Assembly (NCBI RefSeq): GCF_054482525.1
Contig: NZ_CM137006.1
Strand: one strand, 5' to 3'
Length of the DNA stretch: 64,000 nt
The notes beneath the pieces were generated by a model. It ran no database searches. It had not been told where the DNA came from and saw only the letters and a list, made by a program, of their open reading frames with translations. This document shows, piece by piece, positions 6,523 to 44,958 of the stretch. Made by a program: the position numbers and the translations under genes. Each line of letters starts with the position of its first letter. Within the stretch, counting starts at the first letter, position 1.

Positions 6523-6598
6523 GGCCCTTTAGCTCAGTGGTGAGAGCGAGCGACTCATAATCGCCAGGTCGCTGGTTCAAATCCAGCAAGGGCCACCA
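6523..6598 (+). tRNA. ileZ: tRNA-Ile (anticodon CAU, lysidine type; ileX/ileZ-like)
   Basis: 76 nt ending in CCA; near-identical to E. coli ileX; anticodon loop cuCAUaa. Confidence 0.85.
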
Positions 6599-6599
6599 G

Positions 6600-6676
6600 C
6601 CGCCACTAGCTCATCAGGAAAGAGCGTCAACCCTTTAAGTTGAGTGTGCGAGGTTCGAGTCCCCGGTGGCGGTCCA
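6600..6676 (+). tRNA. tRNA, probable Lys (anticodon UUU), with unusual C33 and C1:G72
   Basis: 77-nt cloverleaf; D stem gctc/gagc, anticodon stem tcaac/gttga, loop ccTTTaa, T loop ttcgagt, encoded CCA; one mismatch in the T stem. Confidence 0.55.
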
Positions 6677-6678
6677 GT

Positions 6679-6754
<76 letters not shown>

Positions 6755-6757
6755 TAT

Positions 6758-6832
<75 letters not shown>

Positions 6833-7123: not shown

Positions 7124-7339
7124 ATGAAATCCATGGACAAAATTTCAACGGGCATTGCCTACGGCACCTCCGCAGGCAGTGCTGGCTACTGGTTTTTACA
7201 GTGGCTTGATCAGGTCAGTCCGTCACAGTGGGCTGCGATTGGTGTACTGGGGAGTCTGGTTCTGGGCTTCCTGACTTATCTGACAAATCTGTACTTCAAA
7301 ATCAGAGAAGACAAGCGTAAGGCTGCACGGGGAGAGTAA
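7124..7339 (+). CDS. S: class II pinholin, phage-21 S type, with the dual-start motif MKSMDK
   Basis: 71 aa, essentially the S21 sequence ([70 protein letters not shown]); SD ggaggtgagg. Confidence 0.85.
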
Positions 7340-7343
7340 TTCA

Positions 7344-7694
7344 ATGACTCAAAACTATGAACTGATTGTGAAAGGGATCCGCAATTTTGAGAATAAAGTT
7401 ACGGTAACTTTAGCGTTACGGGACAAAAAACGCTTTGACGGCGAAATTTTTGACCTGGACATCTCGCTGGACCGTGTTGAAGGTGCCGCGCTGGAGTTTT
7501 ATGAGGCAGCAGCCAGAAGGAGCATCAGACAGGTCTTCCTGGATGTTGCTGCCGGGTTATGTGAAGGGGATGAGCAGTCGCCGGAAAAGCGCCCCGTAAT
7601 TTTAGAGGCGCAGAATGTGTGGATAACCTACAAAGGAAAGCTACCAGGAAGAATTACTGGTTCTCTGAAGACTCCTCCGGAATCACAACCTTAA
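7344..7694 (+). CDS. hypothetical protein inserted between holin and endolysin (possibly YdfR/DUF1327-like)
   Basis: 116-aa ORF tightly packed between S (stop 7339) and R (start 7758); the Qin prophage has ydfR in the same position. Confidence 0.45.
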   Translation: MTQNYELIVKGIRNFENKVTVTLALRDKKRFDGEIFDLDISLDRVEGAALEFYEAAARRSIRQVFLDVAAGLCEGDEQSPEKRPVILEAQNVWITYKGKLPGRITGSLKTPPESQP

Positions 7695-7757: not shown

Positions 7758-8291
7758 ATGAACGCAAAAATCAGATACGGCCTGTCGGCTGCCGTTCTGG
7801 CACTGATTGCCGTCGGTGCGCCCGCGCCTGATATTCTCGACCAGTTTCTGGATGAAAAAGAAGGTAACCACACAACGGCATACCGCGATGGTTCCGGCAT
7901 CTGGACCATCTGTCGGGGTGCCACGATGGTGGATGGAAAACCCGTTTTTCCCGGTATGAAACTGTCGAAGGAAAAATGCGACCAGGTCAACGCCATTGAG
8001 CGTGATAAGGCGCTGGCATGGGTGGAGCGCAATATTAAAGTACCACTGACCGAACCACAAAAAGCGGGTATCGCGTCATTTTGTCCCTATAACATTGGCC
8101 CCGGTAAGTGTTTTCCATCGACGTTTTATAAGCGGCTGAATGCTGGTGATCGTAAGGGCGCATGCGAGGCGATTCGCTGGTGGATAAAAGATGGTGGGCG
8201 CGATTGCCGCATACGTTCAAATAACTGCTATGGACAGGTTATTCGTCGTGACCAGGAAAGCGCATTAGCCTGTTGGGGAATAGATCAGTGA
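7758..8291 (+). CDS. R: SAR endolysin (T4-lysozyme fold with an N-terminal signal-arrest-release segment)
   Basis: N-terminal hydrophobic Gly/Ala-rich SAR domain ([16 protein letters not shown]); E-8aa-D-5aa-T catalytic pattern ([16 protein letters not shown]); pairs with a pinholin. Confidence 0.85.
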
Positions 8292-8755
8292 GCAGAGTCG
8301 CCGCGATTATTTATGCTCTGGTTATCTGCATCATCGTCTGCCTGTCGTGGGCGGTCAATCATTACCGTGATAACGCCATCACCTACAAAGAACAGCGTGA
8401 TAAAAAAGTCAGTGAGCTGAAGCAGCTGACCGCCACCATCGCTGACATGCAGCAGCGTCAGCGTGATGTTGCTGCGCTCGATGCAAAGTACTCGAGAGAA
8501 TTAGCCAATGCGAAAGCTGAAAATGAAACTCTGCGCGCTGATGTTGCCGCTGGTCGTAAGCGCCTGCGGGTCAATGCCAGTTGCTCCGCAGCCGTGCGTG
8601 AAGCCACCGGACCCACCAGCGTGGATAATGCAACCAGCCCCAGACTGGCAGACACCGCTGAACGGGATTATTTCACCCTCAGAGAACGGTTGATGACGAT
8701 GCAGAAGCAACTGGAAGGGGCACAGCTATACATTCGTGAGCAATGTCTCAGATAA
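8273..8755 (+). CDS. Rz: i-spanin Rz
   Basis: N-terminal TM segment, coiled-coil periplasmic domain; start overlaps the R stop. Confidence 0.8.
8508..8693 (+). CDS. Rz1: o-spanin Rz1 lipoprotein embedded in the +1 frame of Rz
   Basis: Lipobox LVVSAC, proline-rich mature peptide; entirely inside Rz, as in lambda and phage 21. Confidence 0.7.
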
Positions 8756-8910
8756 AAACCGGCCAAGGATAATCCGCTAAAGATTCGCCGGTGGCGAAAG
8801 AGAGCCAAGGTGTCAACCTACGCTATTACTTATGATAATGCAACAGACGAAGCGGGACATATTGGCGCATAACAAATCAGTGCAGGCTAACTGCAGGAAG
8901 AACTTAGGGC

Positions 8911-9177
8911 GTGAACGTAGAAAACCTAAGTAACGCACATTACATCTATAACGAGATGAAAGAGCTACAGCGACAGAAAGGTATACTGGAAAGTGGTGCA
9001 GGGCTTGGTGTGACAATCCAGTCTGCCTATCAATATAGTGCTTTTCTTGAGGCCATACGCCCGCATGCAGTTGCTGAACTTAACAGCCGTATTGAGGAAA
9101 AGAAATCCGCGCTGGTTAATTTGGGTGCTTCCTTCTCTATATACGAGCATAATAAGGCGGGTTGGAAACCCGCCTAA
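8911..9177 (+). CDS. hypothetical small protein (88 aa); the start may be GTG 8911 or ATG 8956
   Basis: ORF between Rz and the packaging genes; weak SD; the 3' end overlaps the bidirectional hairpin ggcgggtt-ggaa-aacccgcc at 9152-9175. Confidence 0.3.
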   Translation: MNVENLSNAHYIYNEMKELQRQKGILESGAGLGVTIQSAYQYSAFLEAIRPHAVAELNSRIEEKKSALVNLGASFSIYEHNKAGWKPA

Positions 9178-9182
9178 AGCAC

Positions 9183-9722
9183 TTAGAAACTGCGTGGAGC
9201 TGTGGAAAGAATGGATGCCAGTTCTTCCTTCGATAAATCCCAGCTTCGATTTACAGCGTCAATTTTCTTAAACTCATCAAGCATTGCGTTATAGAGATGT
9301 TCTGTACGTGAATGAGTATTGGCAATGGGCTGTTTCTGTTCGGGGAAGCGATCAATTTTCTGATATGCCTCAATGATACTGAAGTAATCGCATTCATTAT
9401 TACCGTCGAAACCTGGGAGCTGAATTGCCCCATCATGTATTTTTAGATGATGGTCACGGACTAATTCTTTTTGCTCGTCATCACTAAGTTTCCTGAAAGC
9501 ATTGGAAAGTCCGCGATACATATTCAAGACAGCAGTAACAAAATCACGATCTTCTTTACTTGGTTCATCAACATCCAAATGTGAATATTCGGCCTTCATA
9601 ACCCAACCATTACCAGATGACACAGCATATTTAACAAGCTGTGGATCAATATCAGTTTCGATACCTAGGTGGATGGCAATGTCACATAACAAAATGGTAT
9701 TGATTTTATCTTTAATATCCAT
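9183..9722 (-). CDS. YfbU (UPF0304)-like protein on the strand opposite to the late operon
   Basis: 179 aa; remembered YfbU blocks align: EDRDFVTAVLNMYRGL vs EETCRTIIDIMEMYHAL, LPGFDGNNE vs FLGFDAATE, DLSKEELASIL vs HLSANEINQII; has its own upstream region 9723-9860. Confidence 0.55.
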   Translation of the reverse strand: MDIKDKINTILLCDIAIHLGIETDIDPQLVKYAVSSGNGWVMKAEYSHLDVDEPSKEDRDFVTAVLNMYRGLSNAFRKLSDDEQKELVRDHHLKIHDGAIQLPGFDGNNECDYFSIIEAYQKIDRFPEQKQPIANTHSRTEHLYNAMLDEFKKIDAVNRSWDLSKEELASILSTAPRSF

Positions 9723-9860
9723 GAGTTAACCCTCTGAAGTAAAAAGTAATATCTACACCCGTTAGCTCATGAAGTCTATTGATCTGGCTCATATCAGCGG
9801 CAAATCTATTTCATGGAGATACTCAATGCAGGTCACTTTTGATTTATATAAGGGCGAAAC

Positions 9861-10211
9861 ATGCCAGCACTAATCCCACGAGCCTGCCGTAAACGTGGAT
9901 GTGCAGGTACAACCACAGACAGTTCTGGTTACTGCGATAAACATCGTGGCGAAGGATGGGTACAGCATCAGCGCGGACTGAGTCGCCACCAGCGTGGCTA
10001 TGGCTCGAAATGGGATGCCATACGTGCGCGCATACTGAAGCGTGATAATGATCTGTGTCAGAACTGCCTGCGCAATGGGAGAGCCGTTGAAGCCAGAACT
10101 GTGGACCACATCATTCCGAAAGCTCATGGTGGCTCGGATGCAGACAGTAACCTGCAGAGTCTGTGCTGGCCCTGCCATAAAGCAAAAACAGCGCGCGAAC
10201 GCATCAATTGA
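9861..10211 (+). CDS. HNH endonuclease (terminase-associated)
   Basis: CxxC...CxxC with DHIIPKAHGGSDADSNLQSLCWPCH; sits immediately upstream of terS as in HK97-like phages. Confidence 0.85.
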   Translation: MPALIPRACRKRGCAGTTTDSSGYCDKHRGEGWVQHQRGLSRHQRGYGSKWDAIRARILKRDNDLCQNCLRNGRAVEARTVDHIIPKAHGGSDADSNLQSLCWPCHKAKTARERIN

Positions 10212-10360: not shown

Positions 10361-10843
10361 ATGTCAGGACCTCCGAAAACCCCGCCACGCCTGCATTTGA
10401 TTCGAGGTAACCCCTCAAAGCGCCCCGTTAAAGACCACAAAAAAACCGCTAAAAAGGATGAAAAAGGTCTTCCTAAAATTCCGCAGCATTTAGGGGCTCA
10501 GGGGAAGTACTGGTTCAGGCGAATGGCGGAAGAGCTGAATGCGGAAGGGATCATTTCTCAGCTTGATGCGCGTGCGCTCGAGCTGCTGGTGGAAGCCTAC
10601 ACCGAATATCGGCATCACTGCGAAACACTCGATGTTGAGGGGTATACCTACCGCACGGAAACGCAGAGCGGTGATGTACTGATTAAGGCGCACCCCGCGG
10701 CGGCAATGAAAGCGGATGCCTGGAAGCGGATCCGGGCAATGCTTGCAGAGTTTGGTATGTCACCGGCAAGCCGGGCTAAAGTAAATATCGCCGGACCGGA
10801 TGATGTTGATCCGCTGGCGGAGCTTTTAAAAGCGAGAGACTGA
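10361..10843 (+). CDS. terS: terminase small subunit (P27 family)
   Basis: 160-aa basic N-terminus; P27-family-like; followed by terL with an ATGA start/stop overlap. Confidence 0.8.
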   Translation: MSGPPKTPPRLHLIRGNPSKRPVKDHKKTAKKDEKGLPKIPQHLGAQGKYWFRRMAEELNAEGIISQLDARALELLVEAYTEYRHHCETLDVEGYTYRTETQSGDVLIKAHPAAAMKADAWKRIRAMLAEFGMSPASRAKVNIAGPDDVDPLAELLKARD

Positions 10844-12600
10844 TGGCAAAAGTGGCTGACGGGATCCGCTACGCCGAACGTGTTGTTGCAGGAGAAATTG
10901 TTGCTGGCGAATTTGTCCGCCTGGCCTGCCAGCGTTTTCTTGATGATCTGAAGTACGGCGAAGAGCGGGGGATTTATTTCAGTGAACCCCGTGCGCAGCA
11001 CATCCTGAATTTCTACAAATTTGTGCCTCATGTAAAAGGGGCGCTGGCAGGCCAGCCCATTGAGTTGATGGACTGGCATGTATTTATCCTCATTAATATT
11101 TTTGGTTTTGTCATTCCGCTGGTCAATGAAGAGACCGGGGAAGTTGTCATGCGCAGCGATGGCAGCGGACGTCCGGTGATGGTGCGCCGGTTCCGGACGG
11201 CGTACAACGAAGTCGCCCGTAAAAACGCAAAATCAACTCTGTCATCGGGTATCGGCCTGTATATGACGGGGGCAGATGGTGAAGGCGGAGCTGAGGTGTA
11301 TTCAGCCGCAACCACGCGTGACCAGGCCAGAATCGTGTTTGAAGACGCCAAAAATATGGTCAGAAAAGCCCGGTCGACACTCGGGCGGTTGTTTGATTTC
11401 AACAAGCTGGCGATTTACCAGGAGCAGAGCGCATCAAAATTTGAACCGCTTTCTTCGGATGCAAACAACCTAGATGGTCTGAACATCCACTGCGCCATTA
11501 TTGATGAGCTGCATGCACATAAAACCCGTGACGTGTGGGACGTTCTGGAAACGGCAACCGGTGCCCGTCTGCAGTCCCTTTTATTTGGTATCACCACGGC
11601 AGGGTTTAACAAGGAAGGGATTTGTTACGAGCAGCGTGATTACGCCATCAAGGTATTGCGTGGCTATAACAGCGACGTGGAGGGCGCGGTAAAAGACGAC
11701 TCCTACTTTGCGATTATTTACACCCTCGATGAGGGAGATGATCCGTTTGATGAAACGGTCTGGCAGAAAGCGAATCCCGGCCTGGGCATCTGTAAACGCT
11801 GGGATGATCTGCGTCGCCTGGCGAAAAAAGCGAAAGAACAGGTCTCTGCGCGGGTGAATTTTTTTACCAAACACATGAATGTGTGGGTAACAGCAGAGTC
11901 TGCCTGGATGGACATGATTAAGTGGGAGAAGTGCGAATACATTGCCCCACGACATGAGCTGAAAACGTATCCCATGTGGGTCGGCGTTGACCTTGCTCAT
12001 AAGATTGATATCTGTGCGGCGGCAAAACTCTGGCGAACGGATAACGGGCATGTTCATGCCGATTTTAAATTCTGGCTTCCGGAAGGACGGCTGGAACGAT
12101 GCTCGCGGCAGCAGGCAGAACTTTACCGGAAGTGGGCGGAGATGGATAAGCTGATTCTGACGGATGGTGATGTTATCGATCATGCTCAGATAAAAAGTGA
12201 CTTACTGGAATGGATTGGTGGTGAAAACCTCAGGGAACTGGGATTTGACCCGTGGAGCGCGATGCAGTTCAGCCTGGCACTGGCTGAAGAAGGGATACCG
12301 CTGGTGGAGGTTCCGCAGACGGTTCGCAATCTGTCAGAGGCCATGAAGGAAACGGAATCACTGGTCTATGCCGGGCGTTTCCATCACAGCAATCATCCGG
12401 TCATGAACTGGATGATGTCTAACGTTACGGTAAAACCGGACAAAAACGACAATATCTTCCCGAATAAATCCACGCTGGAAGCCAAAATCGACGGCCCTGT
12501 TGCGATGTTTACAGCAATGAGCCGGATGCTGGTCAATGGTGGTGAACCGGAGCTGGATCTGTCTGAACATCTGGTCAGCGTGGGCATCCGCTCGCTTTAA
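10843..12600 (+). CDS. terL: terminase large subunit
   Basis: 585 aa; ATPase and nuclease domains (e.g. AIIDELH motif). Confidence 0.9.
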
Positions 12601-28160: not shown

Positions 28161-28760
28161 ATGCGTAAATTATGTGCTGTTATTCTGTCCGCAGTAGTCT
28201 GGCTGGTTGCCGCTGGTACGCCAGCGAGCGCAGCAGAGCATCAGTCCACACTAAGCGCCGGGTATCTTCAGACCCATACTGATATGCCAGGCAGCGATGA
28301 CCTGAAGGGCATTAATGTGAAATACCGTTATGAATTTACGGACACGCTGGGGCTGGTGACGTCATTCAGTTATGCCAATGCCAAAGATGAGCAAAAAACG
28401 CATTACAGCGATACCCGCTGGCATGAAGATTCAGTGCGTAACCGCTGGTTCAGCATGATGGCGGGGCCATCTGTACGCGTGAATGAATGGTTCAGTGCTT
28501 ATGCGATGGCAGGTGTGGCTTACAGCCGTGTTTCGACTTTTTCCGGGGATTATCTCCGCGTAACTGACAGCAAGGGGAAAACGAACGATGTGCTGACCGG
28601 AAGTGATGATGATCGCCACAGCAACACGTCTCTGGCGTGGGGAACTGGCGTGCAGTTTAACCCGACCGAATCCGTGGCCGTTGATATTGCTTATGAAGGT
28701 TCCGGCAGTGGCGACTGGCGCACTGACGGTTTCATCGTGGGTGTCGGTTATAAATTCTGA
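28161..28760 (+). CDS. lom: Lom/Ail family outer-membrane beta-barrel protein
   Basis: Signal peptide, alternating beta-strand pattern, C-terminal ...VGVGYKF; position after J as in lambda. Confidence 0.85.
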   Translation: MRKLCAVILSAVVWLVAAGTPASAAEHQSTLSAGYLQTHTDMPGSDDLKGINVKYRYEFTDTLGLVTSFSYANAKDEQKTHYSDTRWHEDSVRNRWFSMMAGPSVRVNEWFSAYAMAGVAYSRVSTFSGDYLRVTDSKGKTNDVLTGSDDDRHSNTSLAWGTGVQFNPTESVAVDIAYEGSGSGDWRTDGFIVGVGYKF

Positions 28761-32881: not shown

Positions 32882-33228
32882 ATATAAAAAGTAAAAAGCC
32901 GCAGTAACTTGTCATGATAGGATACTGCGGCTGGCTGGTTAACTTTCGATAGTGCGAGTATTGAATGATTTCCAGCCGTTACCGATTTTATATAACTGCA
33001 GTGGAATTATTCAACACACAGGCAAAACGGAATAAGCTGAGAAAAAAGCGTGCTTACCCAATCTGGGGTAAATCACGTCTGAATGACACCTGAAAACAGG
33101 TGGTGGCCTCAAGAAGGCTTGGAATATTCTTCTTTAATGTTATGTAATTTATTGATTTTTCGTGTACGATTTTAAGACATTTATTCCAAGAAAAATTTTT
33201 AACTCTTTGATTTTTCGACTCTGTATCA

Positions 33229-33291
33229 TCGGTCTCGAAAACCGGAGTAGGGGCAACTCTACCGGGGGTTCAAATCCCCCTCTCTCCGCCA
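33229..33291 (+). other. attR: 61-nt copy of the 3' end of tRNA-Ser serU (anticodon CGA), not a complete tRNA
   Basis: ggtctCGAaaaccggagtaggggcaactctaccgggggttcaaatccccctctctccgcca matches serU from the anticodon stem to the 3' end; the sequence immediately upstream does not match the 5' half of the tRNA. Confidence 0.75.
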
Positions 33292-33960
33292 CTTTATCAA
33301 TGACTTATCTCCCGACTTCCCGCCTTGCTTTTCCTAAACAGAACAATCGTAGAATATTCTTGAAGGGTTAGATCGTCACTGTTTTCTGTTCGATACTGTG
33401 ACATTCAGCACTTGATTCGCTATGGATCTGACAGGAAGGTCTCGAGCGAAAATCTGCAGTTATTCAGTCGTTTTCTTATCGGTCACCATTATTCTTTTAG
33501 ACATTGATCCTACGAAGCTGCCGCAAAGTTGGTGGTGGGAACTGAATTTGCGTAGAGAAGGGGTCAATAATTGAGCCAAAAAAGGAACGCGGCCGTCAGA
33601 TTAAAGCCGCGGGACAAAGTCCATAATTTCCAAGAGTTGTTGAATTTCCCAGCTTTTTTGAAAGCCTTTGTATCATACTAACAAGTAAAAAAGGTTTAAA
33701 TACCAAAATTAACCTATATTTCTGGTTAGCTTTACCATGACAGATGACTTGCTCCTGGAGACATTGGCGCAGCCAGTCTGTATTGGTGAGTTGTGTATTT
33801 ATTGTTCGCCGTTTTCTCAGTTTTTTTCTACAGACATAATAAAAAAGACACGTCTCAAGCATGAGCGTGTCTGAGTTTGTCTTATTTATTTGTCTTGGTA
33901 AATTATTGTCGTTACTACCAGGCACTGTTCTGTTAAATAATTGAAGTCAGCGCAAAAAAA

Positions 33961-34611
33961 TCAATGAGACATCATTTCCTCGACCACTTCTTCGCTACTC
34001 AACTGATATGGATAATACGTTGGCCAGTTTTCCATTTCATTTAATAAAGATTGCTGTGAATCATTACCCATAAAAATGTGAAAATGAGATGATTTTCGTG
34101 GTGCAATTATATGATCGCTAAATTGTATATATTTAGGGGCTTTGCTTTTAGGATCTTTACATTCGAATAAGTAACGAACGCCTTTCTTGCCTGATTTATA
34201 GGTGAGTATTTTGTATCCATCGTAATCATATTTACAGGATGTTGTTTCATTATTTCTATGGAATTCAACAATGCCGTCCTCAATGCCAATCATCTCGATA
34301 TCTGTCACATAACCTTTGCGATAATAATCTTTAATTTCAGCAAATGTTTTAGTTTTATCTGCATCCGCTTTCTTCTGAAAGACGGGGTCAAGTTTGCCAC
34401 TTTGCAGTAAAGGATAAACGGATTGCCAGACTCCATCCCAGTCACTGAGCGTTCGGTTTTGTACATTGGCATCATCAAAAACACCATTAGCAGCTTTTTG
34501 TTCGACCTCTGTTAAGGGTTTGCCGTGTGAGTGATGACCATGCGAAAAGGCAGGAGCGCTAACAATAAAGACACCTAAAGCAACAGCCAGTTTATGAAGA
34601 CGAATCGCCAA
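33961..34611 (-). CDS. zinT: zinc/cadmium-binding periplasmic protein ZinT (YodA)
   Basis: 216 aa, signal peptide then HGHHSHG; intrinsic terminator on the minus strand at 33836-33871. Confidence 0.85.
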
Positions 34612-34819
34612 AACAGTTTCCTCCAGAGTTAATGTATATGATGTGTAATGTTATATTGTAACACATAAAAAAATGCAACAACTCTTAGGAGACAAGAGAA
34701 TAGTTCTCTCAGGTGTGCTTATCTATCTTATTGAAATAAAATAAATTATGTCGATGATTTGAGGTTGATGACAAACGAAACATAACCTAATGCGATCTGT
34801 GTATGCCGGATAAGGCGCT

Positions 34820-35574
<755 letters not shown>

Positions 35575-35678
35575 ATCAGCATACTTGTCCTTAGCCTTCT
35601 GCAGTGACAGCTGGTAGTACAGCGTGCTTCTGGCCAGCCCTGCAGCCTTTAACAGGTCAGACTGGCAGTGTCCGCACC

Positions 35679-36209
35679 TCAGGCTCCGGATGACTTTCGT
35701 TTTTTCTCCAGCTCCTGGCGCTTTTTTTCCAGGAGATGCTCCTGCATGGCTTTCAGATATGCATTTTCTGCGCGAAGATAACGCAGCTCATTCTTCATCT
35801 CTTCCGGCGTCATGTTTGCCTCGTTTTCATGGGTATCATCAGAACGGGTCATGCTTTTCTCCTTCCTGCGCCTGATAAAGGCCTCATTACCAGATTTGCG
35901 GTAGCCTTTTATCCAGTTTTTAACCGTGTTGTGGCTGGGAATGTTAAACCGGGCAGCTACCCGGGGTAGAGACTCAGAATGCCCGAGAGCATAAAGAACC
36001 ACGCAAAGTTTATCTTCAGGAGAATAGCTACGCTTGTGTCTGCAATCCAGTGCCCGAGGACCGTGAAGAAGAAAAAGATTAATCCAGTGTGAGAGGCTGG
36101 TGTGAGAAAGTTGAAAGAGTTTTGCCGTAGAAATGATGCCTGCATGACCAGCCAGGTAATGATTTACAGCGGCAAGTTTTACTTCAAATGAATGTTTCAT
36201 AAACTGCAC
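35679..36209 (-). CDS. insJ: IS150 orfA (HTH + leucine zipper)
   Basis: MQFMKHSFEVKLAAVNHYLAGHAGI...; IS3-family OrfA. Confidence 0.8.
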   Translation of the reverse strand: MQFMKHSFEVKLAAVNHYLAGHAGIISTAKLFQLSHTSLSHWINLFLLHGPRALDCRHKRSYSPEDKLCVVLYALGHSESLPRVAARFNIPSHNTVKNWIKGYRKSGNEAFIRRRKEKSMTRSDDTHENEANMTPEEMKNELRYLRAENAYLKAMQEHLLEKKRQELEKKRKSSGA

Positions 36210-36302
36210 CTTCAGATGTCAGATTATGTCCAACATTTGGGGTGCAGTTCAGCTCGCGCCGCATCCGGCAGGGATAACGCGTACTTTGTCGGCAATATGA
36301 AG

Positions 36303-40733: not shown

Positions 40734-41585
40734 TTAACCCGCGTAAGCTGCCAGCATTTCCTGCGCCGCCAGTTTACCCAACGCATTCGCTGCGAAAGGA
40801 CTGTCGCCGGTGAGAACTTTACGGTCCTTATGTACTCGCCCGGTGATGTCGTCATTAATAATGTTCATGCCCATTTTCTTCAGCTCTTCGCCGAAGTACC
40901 AGGTGAGATGACCCGGCATATAGCCTATCTCTGGCGTTTGTTTGTCTGCGGCGTCTGGGAATGCGCAAATGGAATAACCATTCAGTGGGTTATCGCCGTG
41001 GCGAAGCGCCAGAAATGCCGCCGGGCCGTGGCAAAGGGAGATAACAAAACGGTCATTTTTGATTGCCCACTGTAAAGCGGCAGCCACGTTCTGGCTTTCT
41101 GGTAAACCAATAAGTGCGCCATGACCACCAGGAACAAAGATTGCTGCATATTCGCTGTCAGCGTTGAGGCTGGCGACAACATCCGCGAGTTTCTTCGGAT
41201 TGCGGAACAACGATTTATGCTGCTCAAAGAATGGCATTACTTTTTCATCTTTGTGCGGCATAGCCCAGTATTCAAACTTGGTCATCAGACCGGAAATGGT
41301 CGCCACTTCGAATTCGAAACCTGCAGCGTGGAGATGATACAACGGCAGCAACGTTTCAATCGGATGGTTACCGGTCGAGAACAGTTTTCCGTTATCGGTC
41401 GGCAAATAACGTTCGTCCGCGGCGATCACCAGAATTTTATGTTTACCGCGATACGGTTTTGGATAGTCCACGCCATCAAGATCAGAGACAGGACTGGTAT
41501 ATTGGCTAAGCGAATATTCTGAAGGGAAGAATGCATTATCTTCAGCAATATCGACCTGCGGATTTTTACTTGTTTGAACAGTCAT
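40734..41585 (-). CDS. hchA: glyoxalase / chaperone Hsp31 HchA
   Basis: 283 aa; DJ-1/PfpI fold with nucleophile Cys in the ...ISLCHGPAAF... segment. Confidence 0.9.
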   Translation of the reverse strand: MTVQTSKNPQVDIAEDNAFFPSEYSLSQYTSPVSDLDGVDYPKPYRGKHKILVIAADERYLPTDNGKLFSTGNHPIETLLPLYHLHAAGFEFEVATISGLMTKFEYWAMPHKDEKVMPFFEQHKSLFRNPKKLADVVASLNADSEYAAIFVPGGHGALIGLPESQNVAAALQWAIKNDRFVISLCHGPAAFLALRHGDNPLNGYSICAFPDAADKQTPEIGYMPGHLTWYFGEELKKMGMNIINDDITGRVHKDRKVLTGDSPFAANALGKLAAQEMLAAYAG

Positions 41586-42176
41586 AGTGTATTCCTTATT
41601 GTTGCTTAGTTAGGGTAGTCACTATATTTGCGACTGAGCTGGTCGTTATTTTTACCCAGTCTGGAAAATTGAGTCAATATATCGAAAGCGGTAGTCGGCG
41701 GGCGTAAGTATGTAATGATGATGCTGCACTGGTGTTGAATATTATTCACGCCAAATTTTCCTTATGGAGCAACGCCGTCGCAAGTGGCCTCAATGATTTT
41801 AGACCATTATCAGAGGTCCGGGGCGGCAGGGAGAGATTTAATGTTGTGGAATATTGTGGTGCTGATGAATATTTATATCGCGGATTGGTAGAGAAAAAGC
41901 TTTTTTCATGCACTATTTTTGCAAATATTTCTATATGGACGGCGGTTTTGTTGCGGATTAATTCATAAAGAAATGCATTTGGGTGTTGGCTGGAAGAGAC
42001 GCTGGTAGATTTTATTGAGCCAGGAGGGGCGGGGTAATGTGCTGTATCGATATGCTTTGGCAATTGCGTGTGCCGCAGATGGAGATGAAATGCCAATAAA
42101 AAAGCCTGAGTTCGATGAGGGACGAACTCAGGCTATTGTTAAGTTTTACAGTAACACGCCACGGCGCGTTGGCTGA

Positions 42177-43292
42177 TTAGAACTGGTAGACGATACCAAC
42201 TGCAAACTGGTCATCAGCTGCTGCGCCAGTAATGGCGGCGTCATCTTTATCCAGCATGTTGAATTTGTATGCAGTATAAACGTTCATGTTCTTATTGAAG
42301 TAGTACCAGGTACCAACTTCAATGTAGTTCACACGGTCAGCGTCAACATATCTATGTCCAGGTACACCTTTGATATCTTTACCTTTAGAATACACATAAC
42401 CTAAGGACGGACGCAGACCAAAGTCGAATTGATACTGAACAACCGCTTCAAAGTTCTGGGTTTCATTGATAAGTTGATCACGCATTATTGTATTGCCTTC
42501 TCGATCGGCAACACCTGTATCAATAGAACTCGGAGTCATATTACGAGTTTCACCGTACATTACAGCTGCGTAGACATTGTTCGCGTCATACTTTGCAGCC
42601 AATGACCACAGTTCAGCATTTGAACCGTTTCCATCGGCAACTTGATCGTTGGTGCGATCAGATTTGCTATATGCACCAACGATACCAAAACCATTGATGT
42701 TATAGTCTACAGACAACGCATAGCCGTCACCATTTTGTTTCTTAGTGCTACGGTTGCTGTTTTTGCCTTGGTACTGAATCGCAAAATCAAGACCATCAAC
42801 CAGACCAAAGAAATCAGAGTTACGGTAGGTTGCAACACCGTTGGTACGACCGTTCATGAAGTTGTCAGCGGACGCCCAGGAATCACCACCCCATTCAACT
42901 AACATATCGGTATAAGCTGCGGCATCATAAGCAACACCGTAGTTACGACCATAGTCGAAAGATCCTAACTCGTTATATTTCAAACCTGCGAAGGTTAAAC
43001 GGGTTTTTTCCTGATTAGAGCCTTCGGGCTTGCTGGCGTCGAGGTTGTATTCAAACTGACCAAAACCAGTCAGTTCGCTGGTGATTTGGGTTTCACCTTT
43101 AACACCGAAACGAGCATAGGAGGTATCTTCGTTTTCGCTGTTATTATCATCAGTATTTGACCAGATGCGTTCGCCAACCATCTTGCCGTAGAAATCAACT
43201 TTATTGCCATCTTTATTATAAATTTCAGCCGCATTTGCTGCGCCAGCAACTAATAACGCCGGGACCAGCATTGCCAGAACTTTTCTTTTCAT
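42177..43292 (-). CDS. yedS: intact OmpC/OmpF-family general porin at the yedS locus (a pseudogene in K-12)
   Basis: Signal peptide [21 protein letters not shown], 16-strand porin pattern, C-terminal ...VGIVYQF; AT-rich OmpR-box-like upstream region at 43300-43840. Confidence 0.8.
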
Positions 43293-43839
43293 TATGTATT
43301 CCCTTGTGATTATAATCTTCATGAATATATCAATAAGTGCTGTTATCCAAAAAAAAGCACATTTGGATACTATTCTATGAAGTTCATTTTATTTTAAAGA
43401 TTACATGTAACAAATGTATTTAAAAGATTTCAAAATGTTTCCAATCTATTTAATATAATTCAGAATTATGAATTCTAAATATAAGCATTCATGAAAATTA
43501 TAAATACATATCAATATGTTATGAGTTGAGCGGAAATATAGGGGGTATCAATGATTGTTGCGCCAAACGGCTGGTGTGATCACGCGCACATTAATGAAGA
43601 CATAAAAAAAGCCGGCATCATGCCGGCCCAAAAAATATAAACAAGACGATAAAAGGCTAATAACGGAAGCATCATGACACAGAATAATAAAAAGGGATAA
43701 TTGTAATCAGTGCTAATATATTGATCGAATGAATTAATAAAGCCGATATCAAAGATAAATAAAATCGCTCAAAACGATTTTTCCTGTATTCACTGCCATT
43801 GCGCAAAAATTATCTATTTGTTCAAAAAATGATTGAGTC

Positions 43840-44223
43840 TTGACTGGCTCATCCAATGTGGAAAAATGTGACTTTTATCACATAATAGTACTAAGTCTGA
43901 ATTTTCCGGGTTATCTCAAAATGGAATACGGTTCGACAAAGATGGAAGAGAGACTCTCTCGCAGCCCTGGTGGCAAATTGGCTTTGTGGGCTTTCTATAC
44001 ATGGTGTGGCTATTTTGTCTGGGCAATGGCGCGTTACATCTGGGTGATGAGCCGGATCCCCGATGCCCCCGTGTCGGGATTTGAAAGCGATTTAGGCTCT
44101 ACCGCGGGAAAGTGGTTAGGGGCACTGGTCGGCTTTTTATTTATGGCTCTGGTCGGGGCATTGTTAGGCAGCATTGCCTGGTACACCCGACCTCGTCCCG
44201 CACGCAGCAGACGCTATGAATAA
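43840..44223 (+). CDS. yedR: inner membrane protein YedR; start uncertain (GTG 43858 possible)
   Basis: Two TM segments; K-12 gene order. Confidence 0.6.
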   Translation: MTGSSNVEKCDFYHIIVLSLNFPGYLKMEYGSTKMEERLSRSPGGKLALWAFYTWCGYFVWAMARYIWVMSRIPDAPVSGFESDLGSTAGKWLGALVGFLFMALVGALLGSIAWYTRPRPARSRRYE

Positions 44224-44262
44224 AAACTGCTAATGTTGCGACTCTTTGGCAACGGAGCGCGT

Positions 44263-44958
44263 ATGGACTTACAACACTGGCAGACACAGTTCGAAAACTG
44301 GTTGAAAAACCATCATCAGCACCAGGACGCGGCCCATGACGTGTGTCATTTTCGCCGCGTCTGGGCTACGGCACAGAAGCTGGCGGCAGATGACGATGTC
44401 GATATGCTGGTGATTTTAACCGCCTGTTATTTTCACGATATTGTGAGCCTGGCGAAAAATCATCCACAACGGCAGCATTCTTCAATCCTGGCGGCAGAAG
44501 AGACGCGTCGCCTGCTCCGTGAAGAGTTCGTGCAATTTCCGGCGGAGAAAATCGAGGCCGTTTGTCATGCCATTGCCGCTCACAGTTTCAGCGCGCAAAT
44601 CGCCCCCTTAACAACGGAAGCTAAAATCGTCCAGGATGCGGATCGGCTGGAAGCCCTGGGGGCGATTGGCCTGGCGCGCGTGTTTGCTGTTTCAGGGGCA
44701 TTGGGCGTGGCGCTGTTTGATGGTGAAGATCCGTTCGCACAGCATCGCCCGCTTGATGATAAACGCTACGCGCTGGATCATTTCCAGACTAAGTTGCTGA
44801 AGCTACCGCAAACCATGCAAACCGCAAGAGGCAAGCAGCTGGCGCAGCACAACGCGCAATTTTTAGTCGAGTTTATGGCGAAGCTCAGTGCCGAACTGGC
44901 GGGGGAGAATGAAGGTGTCGATCACAAGGTGATAGATGCGTTTTCACCCGCGGGCTGA
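44263..44958 (+). CDS. yedJ: HD-domain phosphohydrolase YedJ
   Basis: HD motif ...CYFHDIV...; the internal Met gives 231 aa. Confidence 0.8.

What the first reader, a model, noticed from the sequence alone, without database searches (positions are those of the whole stretch)
8756..9860. Convergent two-gene island (88-aa ORF and YfbU/UPF0304-like protein) between the lysis and packaging modules
Two ORFs sit in the classic lambdoid moron slot after Rz/Rz1, where lambda has bor. The 88-aa ORF (8911-9177) is on the plus strand. The 179-aa ORF (9183-9722) is on the minus strand with its own upstream region (9723-9860). They converge on a shared GC hairpin (ggcgggtt-ggaa-aacccgcc, 9152-9175) that can serve as a bidirectional terminator. 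The minus-strand protein aligns block-for-block with my recollection of E. coli YfbU (UPF0304), a conserved protein of unknown function. A phage-borne, opposite-strand, independently transcribed YfbU-like gene next to a small partner ORF has the architecture of a lysogen-expressed accessory system. That could be exclusion, defence or a toxin-antitoxin-like pair. I know of no described function for it.
Basis: partly seen in the sequence, partly recalled or inferred. Interest (0 to 1): 0.55.

Follow-up and report, generated by a model that had tools for sequence, protein, structure and literature searches.

The report
Prophage YfbU-like antisense accessory gene
An E. coli prophage carries a single self-contained gene for a distant YfbU-family protein, set backwards between its lysis and DNA-packaging genes; it most resembles a recently described one-gene anti-phage system from Lactococcus, and the small ORF beside it is an unrelated phage late gene, not its partner.

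Summary

The "two-gene island" does not hold. The 88-aa ORF is a member of a widespread 76-aa family (phrog_5415) that always directly follows the spanin gene(s) of a lysis cassette. In this window its stop codon mutated (TAA to ATA), so it reads 12 codons into the neighbouring gene's terminator hairpin. The two genes occur independently in both directions. In some E. coli prophages the small ORF has an internal stop while the YfbU-like gene stays intact.

The mobile unit is one gene, about 9139-9800, with its own terminator and a conserved 5' region. In 74 of 75 viral contigs, relatives at 29-100% identity lie antisense to the late genes. In 53 of them the gene is demonstrably between lysis and terminase.

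The closest known system is Kamadhenu, a 180-aa single-gene YfbU-domain abortive-infection system. Best reading: a lysogen-expressed, Kamadhenu-like exclusion gene. This is untested.

The parts
8756..8843 (.). Non-coding joint after Rz. Sequence here has no counterpart in the other phages that carry the 76-aa ORF.
   Evidence: blastn homology to L083-L085, L096, L097 and L101 starts only at window 8842-8844.
8844..8933 (+). 3' remnant (about the last 30 codons) of an o-spanin lipoprotein gene from a different lysis cassette. It was left behind when the lambda-type S/YdfR/R/Rz-Rz1 cassette was recombined in.
   Evidence: The translation ...QTKRDILAHNKSVQANCRKNLGRERRKPK* matches the C-terminus of the 68-aa lipobox proteins at L084/L085 2817-3023.
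8911..9177 (+). 88-aa ORF, a member of the 76-aa phrog_5415 family, which is the late-strand gene directly after the spanin gene(s). Codons 77-88 (9139-9174) are a lineage-specific read-through caused by loss of the ancestral stop (TAA to ATA).
   Evidence: phrog_5415 E 2e-38 over residues 1-76 of 76. The family alignment ends at ...SFS*. Klebsiella has TCT TAA where the window has TCT ATA. Substitutions by codon position are 112/72/244, so the ORF is coding. The model is a two-helix hairpin (pLDDT 79) with no significant fold match.
9155..9175 (-). Stem-loop (9 bp stem, 3 nt loop) that starts 8 nt after the YfbU-like stop codon, with a T-rich tail on the minus strand. Probably the intrinsic terminator or 3'-end stabiliser of the YfbU-like transcript.
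   Evidence: Folding gives z about -3.1. Every YfbU-like gene examined has a GC hairpin 8-15 nt after its stop with a T-rich tail on its own strand. The stems differ by compensatory changes: GGCGGGTT/AACCCGCC, GGCGGGG/CCCCGCC, GGCGGGAA/TTCCCGCC.
9183..9722 (-). 179-aa YfbU-family protein (phrog_6084), the cargo gene.
9723..9800 (-). Conserved 5' region that travels with the gene. It holds an RBS AGAGGG (9735-9730, 7 nt before the ATG), a -10-like GATATT (9753-9748) and a -35-like TAGACT (9778-9773, 19-nt spacer). The promoter is inferred, not shown.
   Evidence: The blocks ATAGACT, GATATTA and TTTTACTTCAGAGGGTTA are invariant or nearly invariant across relatives of 75-94% identity whose sequence further upstream is unrelated. 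The consensus sigma-70 scan found no minus-strand site.
9801..9860 (.). Spacer before the HNH start. It is shared only with the closest relatives.
   Evidence: Alignments A2 and A7.
9861..10211 (+). HNH endonuclease, the first gene of the packaging module and the right flank of the slot.
   Evidence: Pfam HNH E 2.3e-16. Homology to loci that lack the cassette resumes at its ATG.

Best explanation
The feature is a one-gene accessory cassette (a moron), not a pair. It occupies about 9139-9800. It consists of a YfbU-family gene on the strand opposite the late operon, its own 5' regulatory region and its own terminator hairpin. It sits in the lysis-to-terminase gap of an E. coli lambdoid prophage, the same place and orientation as lambda bor.

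Because it is antisense to everything around it, it is most likely transcribed from its own promoter in the lysogen. Late transcription running across it would probably silence it. Both points are inferred.

Its most likely job is that of Kamadhenu, the 180-aa single-gene YfbU-domain abortive-infection system of lactococcal plasmids. On that reading, a soluble two-domain helical protein is harmless in the lysogen. It is triggered by a component of a superinfecting phage; for Kamadhenu the escape mutations lie in a Sak-like single-strand annealing protein. It then stops the infection at a late step at the cost of the cell. This protects the lysogen population and the prophage.

Shown here: family membership, fold, cassette boundaries, independence from the 88-aa ORF, purifying selection, and the recurrent antisense position.
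Inferred: the promoter, expression in the lysogen, anti-phage activity, and the trigger.

The 88-aa ORF is a separate late gene at the end of the lysis cassette, of unknown role. In this lineage it is accidentally extended into the cassette's terminator.
For: Family and fold:

Kamadhenu precedent:
- It is a single gene of 180 aa in PF03887 and confers an abortive-infection phenotype.
- Escape mutations lie at G22 of a Sak-like SSAP (PMC12184496).
- It has no effect on phage DNA replication, transcription or translation (PMC13064643).

Cassette boundaries:
- Homology to loci that lack the gene breaks at the 76-aa ORF's stop and resumes at the HNH ATG.
- The slot is empty in L085, holds a plus-strand 187-aa gene in L084, and holds a minus-strand 146-aa gene in Salmonella.

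Mosaicism:
- Between E. coli and Klebsiella the YfbU-like CDS is 93% identical at nucleotide level. The 76-aa ORF is 83% and HNH is 70%.

Position and orientation:
- In 74 of 75 IMG/VR loci with recognisable flanks the gene is antisense to all lysis and terminase genes. In 53 it is demonstrably between the two modules. This holds across three terminase types and several lysis cassettes, and for relatives down to 29% identity. The same is seen.

Own signals:
- A terminator hairpin with compensatory stem changes.
- A conserved 5' region.

Mobile elements and defence neighbourhoods:
- Relatives sit on a conjugative Kosakonia plasmid, on 146 Enterococcus plasmids, and in a P2-like Yersinia phage after the tail-fibre genes.
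- Among 122 immediate neighbours of distant homologs, PADLOC models hit PDC-S15 (7), MADS mad3 (2) and mad8 (1), TIR/bSEFIR (2), PDC-S66, PDC-S43 and PDC-M01A (2 each), AriAB of PARIS (1) and HEC-05 (1).

Frequency:
- The gene is present in 224 of 5426 complete E. coli genomes.
Against: - There is no functional or expression data for this gene.
- No PADLOC model matches it. However, Kamadhenu is not in PADLOC or DefenseFinder (PMC13335696).
- I could not obtain the Kamadhenu sequence, so the closeness of the two proteins within PF03887 is unknown.
- The promoter-like hexamers are weak (4/6 and 4/6, with a 19-nt spacer), and the consensus scan did not call them.
- The hairpin's T-tail is imperfect.
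- The defence-neighbourhood count has no matched control.
- Canonical YfbU is a chromosomal housekeeping-type gene linked to MazF-dependent death, not to phage defence, so family membership alone does not imply defence.
Confidence: 0.5

Rival explanations
1. The 88-aa ORF and the YfbU-like gene form a two-component, lysogen-expressed system, either a toxin-antitoxin-like pair or a two-gene defence system, that shares a bidirectional terminator.
For: The two genes are adjacent in all 224 or so E. coli genomes that carry the YfbU-like gene, and in Klebsiella prophages. All 36 viral loci where the YfbU-like protein is at least 89% identical also carry the small ORF.
Against: - The co-occurrence is limited to one recent lineage. 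It is 0 of 42 viral loci below 85% identity.
- By profile HMM, 11 sampled loci have YfbU only and 19 have the 76-aa ORF only.
- The small ORF is on the late-operon strand. Its start overlaps the upstream spanin gene by 4 or 23 nt, whatever lies downstream.
- It carries an internal stop (Q41*) in E. coli cS33a and I2, where the YfbU-like gene is intact.
- Its 12-aa tail in this window is a stop-codon loss.
- Convergent orientation is atypical for toxin-antitoxin operons (general knowledge).
- Kamadhenu works as a single gene.
- The hairpin has a T-tail on one strand only.
Confidence: 0.05
2. A lysogenic-conversion gene that acts on host physiology and not on incoming phages. On this reading a YfbU paralog modulates the host's stress or DNA-damage death pathway, in which chromosomal YfbU was implicated. 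This changes lysogen survival or prophage induction.
For: E. coli YfbU is selectively made after MazF induction and is required for mazEF-mediated death after DNA damage (PMC2646832). The gene's position and orientation match lambda bor, a host-phenotype gene (general knowledge). The gene is common in human extra-intestinal isolates.
Against: The protein is only about 19% identical to host YfbU, so sharing partners or co-assembling with it is doubtful. The only experimentally characterised mobile-element-borne YfbU-domain protein is an anti-phage system. Distant homologs lie next to defence genes.
Confidence: 0.2
3. A gene used in the phage's own lytic cycle or as a counter-defence. An example would be blocking a host YfbU/MazEF-type suicide response so that the phage can complete its growth.
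For: mazEF-type death pathways can act as abortive infection (general knowledge). The phage carries a paralog of a host 'death protein'.
Against: Antisense placement inside the late operon in 74 of 75 loci is the opposite of what a late lytic function needs. Q-antiterminated late transcription would collide with it. It is not in the early region, where anti-defence genes usually lie. The sequence distance from host YfbU also argues against it.
Confidence: 0.1

Closest known systems
Kamadhenu (pUCCL624_130), a single-gene abortive-infection-like antiphage system of lactococcal plasmids (Grafakou et al. 2024, PMC11381338; Mosterd et al. 2025, PMC12184496)
   Different: The host phylum differs (Bacillota plasmid versus enterobacterial prophage). 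Sequence identity is unknown because the Kamadhenu sequence could not be retrieved. Anti-phage activity, abortive phenotype and the SSAP-linked trigger are shown for Kamadhenu only. The fixed antisense position between lysis and terminase is specific to the prophage clade.
Chromosomal YfbU (UPF0304) of E. coli, PDB 1WPB and 4LR3
   Same: Same Pfam family and same two-domain helical fold. The GFD...E..Y motif is shared.
   Different: About 19% identity. The NCBIfam equivalog score is 35.5 against a cutoff of 90. There is no DNA similarity: blastn of the phage gene hits only 224 of 5426 E. coli genomes. The N-terminal 54 or so residues are not alignable by profile. Canonical YfbU is a conserved chromosomal gene, whereas this one is a variable prophage cargo gene.
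Lambda bor, and accessory genes (morons) of the Rz-to-cos/terminase gap in general
   Same: Same slot and same antisense orientation to the late operon. Both are self-contained transcription units. Presence varies among related phages.
   Different: The protein is unrelated. Bor is an outer-membrane lipoprotein that confers serum resistance. This protein is predicted to be soluble and cytoplasmic.
Two-gene loci pairing YfbU with a small membrane protein, seen here in diverse bacteria and on Enterococcus faecium plasmids (not described in the papers I found)
   Same: The YfbU-domain protein belongs to the same GFDGNNE-motif subfamily.
   Different: Those loci have a co-directional neighbour of about 167 aa with an N-terminal transmembrane helix (28 of 79 loci; L086). 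The window has no such gene.

Membership tests
Pfam YfbU / UPF0304 (PF03887) | Whole-protein score above Pfam's gathering threshold | tested here: met
   48.4 bits against a cutoff of 25, E 1.4e-12, residues 38-172 on model positions 38-164 of 166.
Pfam YfbU / UPF0304 (PF03887) | YfbU two-domain helical fold | tested here: met
Canonical YfbU ortholog (NCBIfam NF003936 equivalog) | Score above the equivalog cutoff | tested here: not met
   35.5 bits against a cutoff of 90. Single-sequence phmmer does not find 1WPB.
Kamadhenu-type single-gene YfbU defence | A protein of about 180 aa consisting of one YfbU domain | tested here: met
   179 aa. PF03887 and the fold match cover the protein. Kamadhenu is 180 aa with PF03887.
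Kamadhenu-type single-gene YfbU defence | Stand-alone gene with no obligatory partner, on a mobile element | tested here: met
   Independent distribution from the adjacent ORF. Prophage and plasmid carriage.
Kamadhenu-type single-gene YfbU defence | Direct sequence relatedness to pUCCL624_130 | not testable with these tools
   The sequence was not retrievable. No supplement text is held. tblastn against plasmids and a protein search seeded with the Enterococcus homolog showed no Lactococcus hit in the listed rows.
Kamadhenu-type single-gene YfbU defence | Confers phage resistance with an abortive phenotype, with escape through a phage single-strand annealing protein | not testable with these tools
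   This needs experiments. It is known only for Kamadhenu.
Toxin-antitoxin or two-gene system with the 88-aa ORF | Conserved co-occurrence of both genes across lineages | tested here: not met
   11 loci have YfbU only and 19 have the 76-aa ORF only. Co-occurrence is 0 of 42 viral loci below 85% identity.
Toxin-antitoxin or two-gene system with the 88-aa ORF | Both genes kept intact together | tested here: not met
   The 76-aa ORF has an internal stop in cS33a and I2, where the YfbU-like gene is intact.
Phage moron (self-contained accessory transcription unit) | Variable presence at a fixed slot between conserved modules | tested here: met
   The slot is empty or holds other cargo in related phages. 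Sharp homology breaks flank it.
Phage moron (self-contained accessory transcription unit) | Own terminator | tested here: met
   A hairpin follows the stop codon in every lineage, with compensatory stem changes and a T-rich tail on the gene's own strand. The strict consensus scan missed it.
Phage moron (self-contained accessory transcription unit) | Own promoter, active in the lysogen | tested here: inconclusive
   A conserved 5' block holds weak -35-like and -10-like hexamers. No consensus promoter was called. No transcript data are available.

The most novel reading that the evidence does not exclude
YfbU-domain genes may form an old, diverse and so far unrecognised class of prophage-encoded abortive-infection or exclusion genes in Enterobacteriaceae. 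They have kept the antisense lysis-to-terminase slot while diverging to below 30% identity. They would be triggered by the recombination (single-strand annealing) proteins of superinfecting phages, as the Kamadhenu escape mutants suggest. If so, the function of the long-unexplained chromosomal YfbU 'death protein' could be approached through them. The paired loci (YfbU with a small membrane protein) and the fusions of a ribbon-helix-helix domain to YfbU seen elsewhere would be further variants of one sensor module.
Probability: 0.3. Interest if true: 0.65.

Novelty: new member of a known kind. Interest (0 to 1): 0.42.

Why it matters
- If active, this gene would extend the Kamadhenu type of one-gene defence from dairy lactococci to prophages in about 4% of complete E. 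coli genomes, and to prophages of Klebsiella, Enterobacter and relatives. This is relevant to phage therapy host range.
- PADLOC and DefenseFinder do not model this system, so annotation pipelines label the gene only 'YfbU family protein'.
- It offers a tractable E. coli model for finding out what the YfbU fold does. That has been open since the structure was solved in 2004 and the 'death protein' report of 2009.
- The analysis shows that the gap after the spanin-associated 76-aa gene is a cargo hotspot. It holds several unknown antisense genes that would be worth screening.

Tried and rejected
- Two-gene or toxin-antitoxin model. Rejected on distribution, strand, the pseudogene evidence and the stop-loss origin of the 12-aa tail.
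- Bidirectional terminator. Rejected in favour of a minus-strand terminator, because there is no T-run on the plus strand.
- Known defence models. PADLOC gave no hit for either protein.
- Function of the 88-aa ORF. There is no Pfam, NCBIfam or PDB sequence hit. The model is a helical hairpin with no significant Foldseek match; the best E is 1.0.
- Retrieving the Kamadhenu sequence. All of these failed: paper supplements, tblastn of the window protein and of the E. faecium homolog against plasmids, and a protein search seeded with the E. faecium homolog.
- Other cargo genes of the same slot (146, 187 and 192 aa, and others). No Pfam or PADLOC identity.
- Consensus promoter scan of 8600-10000. 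Two plus-strand sites were found, which is no more than chance (2.9 expected). None was found on the minus strand.

Full report
**What is in the sequence**

The region lies in the late operon of an E. coli lambdoid prophage. Upstream, all on the plus strand, are a class II holin (7124-7339), a YdfR/DUF1327 gene (7344-7694), a lysozyme (7758-8291) and Rz/Rz1 (8273-8755 / 8508-8693). Downstream are an HNH endonuclease (9861-10211), a P27-type small terminase (10361-10843) and the large terminase (10843-12600).

- 8911-9177 (+), 88 aa, GTG start.
- 9183-9722 (-), 179 aa.

The 1.2-kb region is 100% identical to E. coli strains W46 and 405 and 99.5% identical to induced phage vB_EcoS-689R5. RefSeq labels the two genes 'hypothetical protein' and 'YfbU family protein'.

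**The hairpin**

The hairpin is AGGCGGGTT-GGA-AACCCGCCT at 9155-9175. Its free energy is about -16 kcal/mol, with z about -3.1 to -3.3. It lies inside the last codons of the 88-aa ORF.

**The YfbU claim**

The claim holds, but at a distance.
- Pfam PF03887 scores 48.4 bits against a cutoff of 25.
- NCBIfam's YfbU equivalog model scores 35.5 against a cutoff of 90.
- Single-sequence phmmer finds no solved YfbU.
- A profile of 26 relatives finds 1WPB and 4LR3 at E 1e-7, over residues 55-173 only.
- blastn of the gene hits only 224 of 5426 complete E. coli genomes, so it does not cross-match the chromosomal yfbU.

It is therefore a divergent paralog, not a copy of the host gene. A whole-library profile search finds 1733 cluster representatives at E up to 1e-3 and 690 at E up to 1e-10, mostly 170-190 aa.

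**The 88-aa ORF is not a partner**

It belongs to phrog_5415, a family of 76 aa with more than 276 clusters in Citrobacter, Salmonella, Klebsiella and E. coli. It is clearly coding: substitutions by codon position are 112/72/244.

In every context sampled it is the gene directly after the spanin gene or genes. Its start overlaps them by 4 or 23 nt, and it is on the late strand.

What follows it varies:
- Nothing before HNH (E. coli DA33137, L085).
- A plus-strand 187-aa gene (ETEC, L084).
- A minus-strand 146-aa gene (Salmonella, L101).
- A minus-strand 192-aa gene (L109-L113; the query protein carries Citrobacter freundii source names).
- Plus-strand gene clusters (L104-L108, L114-L118).
- The YfbU-like gene (E. 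coli and Klebsiella).

Profile HMM searches of the fetched loci give 9 loci with both genes, 11 with YfbU-like only and 19 with the 76-aa ORF only. In IMG/VR viral contigs the small ORF accompanies the YfbU-like gene in 36 of 36 loci at 89% protein identity or more, and in 0 of 42 below 85%. The adjacency is therefore linkage within one recent lineage.

In the cS33a/I2 class of E. coli prophages the small ORF has an internal stop at codon 41, while the YfbU-like gene is intact. That argues against an antidote role.

The extra 12 residues in this window come from loss of the ancestral stop codon. Klebsiella reads TCT TAA TGC GAG where the window reads TCT ATA TAC GAG. Translation therefore runs on through the hairpin to the next stop.

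The predicted structure is a two-helix hairpin with no informative fold match.

**The real unit is a one-gene cassette**

Alignment with loci that lack the gene shows homology ending at the 76-aa ORF's stop (window about 9138) and resuming at the HNH start codon.

Comparison with relatives of 75-83% identity in other phage backgrounds shows that about 78 nt of 5' sequence travels with the gene. It contains invariant blocks:
- ATAGACT, which contains the -35-like TAGACT at 9778-9773.
- GATATTA, which contains the -10-like GATATT at 9753-9748.
- An AGAGGG ribosome-binding site 7 nt before the ATG.

The hexamers are weak and the consensus scan did not call them, so the promoter is inferred.

Every YfbU-like gene examined, in five lineages, has a GC stem-loop 8-15 nt after its stop with a T-rich tail on its own strand. 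Stem sequences differ by compensatory changes. On the plus strand the window's hairpin has no T-run. It is therefore the terminator of the minus-strand gene and not a shared bidirectional one.

Between E. coli and Klebsiella the cargo CDS is 93% identical at nucleotide level. The flanking 76-aa ORF is 83% and HNH is 70%. This is a mosaic pattern typical of exchanged cassettes.

**Position is the most striking regularity**

In 74 of 75 IMG/VR loci with recognisable flanking genes, the YfbU-like gene is antisense to all lysis and terminase genes. In 53 it is demonstrably between the two modules. This holds across P27/HNH, Nu1/gpA and DUF1441/gpA terminases and several lysis cassettes, and for proteins from 100% down to 29% identity. 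Searches show the same.

This is the position and orientation of lambda bor (general knowledge). It argues for expression that is uncoupled from late transcription, that is, expression in the lysogen.

**What it most likely does**

A full-text search shows that a YfbU-domain protein has a demonstrated mobile-element function. Kamadhenu is a 180-aa single-gene system on a lactococcal plasmid.
- Escape phages carry a mutation at G22 of a Sak-like single-strand annealing protein (PMC12184496).
- Phage DNA replication, transcription and translation are unaffected (PMC13064643).

Chromosomal YfbU was reported to be required for mazEF-dependent death after DNA damage (PMC2646832).

Kamadhenu is not in PADLOC or DefenseFinder (PMC13335696). 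This explains the empty PADLOC result.

Supporting context:
- Relatives occur on a conjugative Kosakonia plasmid, on many Enterococcus plasmids, and in a P2-like Yersinia phage after the tail-fibre genes.
- Among 122 immediate neighbours of distant homologs in 79 genomes, PADLOC models hit PDC-S15/FRG (7), MADS components, TIR proteins, PARIS AriAB and several candidate systems. There is no matched control for this count.

My best reading, at confidence about 0.5, is a lysogen-expressed, Kamadhenu-like single-gene exclusion or abortive-infection gene. That it is a stand-alone antisense cassette I hold at about 0.85. The anti-phage function and the trigger are inferred.

**Rivals**

- A host-physiology conversion gene that acts on stress or DNA-damage death (0.2).
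- A lytic-cycle or counter-defence role (0.1). This is disfavoured by the antisense late-operon position.

**Novelty and interest**

The kind of system is known since 2024, but in another phylum and on plasmids. I found no paper that links enterobacterial prophage YfbU-family genes to it.

I rate it a new member of a known kind and moderately interesting. It is common and testable in E. coli, and it may give a handle on the unexplained YfbU fold. No activity is shown here.

Noticed in passing
window 8844-8933: This is a 3' remnant of an o-spanin lipoprotein gene from a different lysis cassette (the holin_8 / holin_3_7 / GH19 / i-spanin / o-spanin type). It marks where the lambda-type S-YdfR-R-Rz/Rz1 cassette was swapped in. 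Homology to those phages begins at 8842-8844.
   Followed up: yes
window 8911-9138; loci L084, L085, L096-L118: The 76-aa phrog_5415 gene is always the gene directly after the spanin gene(s), with a 4- or 23-nt start overlap. This holds across several lysis-cassette and terminase types. It looks like an uncharacterised terminal gene of lysis cassettes and is predicted to form a helical hairpin.
   Followed up: partly
L101 3777-4217 (-), L109 2767-3345 (-), L084 3306-3869 (+), L104-L108, L114-L118: The gap after the 76-aa gene is a cargo hotspot. Other occupants include an antisense 146-aa gene (Salmonella), an antisense 192-aa gene (L109-L113), a sense 187-aa gene (ETEC) and sense clusters with a methyltransferase. 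None of those scanned has an informative Pfam or PADLOC match.
   Followed up: partly
L012 7452-7973, L017 7465-7968 and 26 more loci; L086 4523-5035: In 28 of 79 genomes with distant (25-36% identical) YfbU-like genes, a co-directional protein of about 167 aa lies immediately next to the YfbU-like gene (upstream in 27, downstream in one). It has an N-terminal transmembrane helix and a coiled-coil. E. faecium plasmids have a similar membrane protein just downstream. This may be a two-gene variant. The protein has no Pfam or PADLOC hit.
   Followed up: partly
proteins P0214, P0223 (232-238 aa): Some family members carry an N-terminal extension of about 50 aa that looks like a ribbon-helix-helix (CopG/Arc-type) DNA-binding domain fused to the YfbU domain. 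I judged this by eye from the sequence and did not test it against a profile.
   Followed up: no
L016 8545-9228, L082 5963-7075 and 5 more loci: FRG-domain proteins (PADLOC candidate system PDC-S15) lie directly next to distant YfbU-like genes in 7 of 79 loci.
   Followed up: partly
L087 (Yersinia phage vB_YenM_324) 4956-5534: A YfbU-like gene (32% identical) sits in a P2-like phage after the tail-fibre genes, near the genome end. In P2-like phages that region is a known site of variable anti-phage cargo (from memory, not checked here).
   Followed up: no
window 6523-6832: Four tRNA genes (Met-CAT, Lys-TTT, Thr-TGT, Gly-TCC) lie between the Q antiterminator region and the holin. RefSeq calls the first one tRNA-Ile in strain 405.
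   Followed up: no
window about 28161-28760 and about 32900-34800: By collinearity with E. coli strain 405, the prophage also carries an Ail/Lom-family outer-membrane accessory gene after gpJ. It ends after the tail-fibre genes, next to zinT. The rest of the window is chromosome (msrPQ, hprRS, dcm-vsr, fli operons). The window has extra segments relative to strain 405 at about 34819-36252 and 41462-44521.
   Followed up: partly
window 9010-9039 (+): A sigma-70-like site (GTGACA-18-TATAGT, 10 of 12 matches) lies inside the 88-aa ORF. The number of such sites in the region is no higher than in shuffled sequence, so it is probably chance.
   Followed up: no
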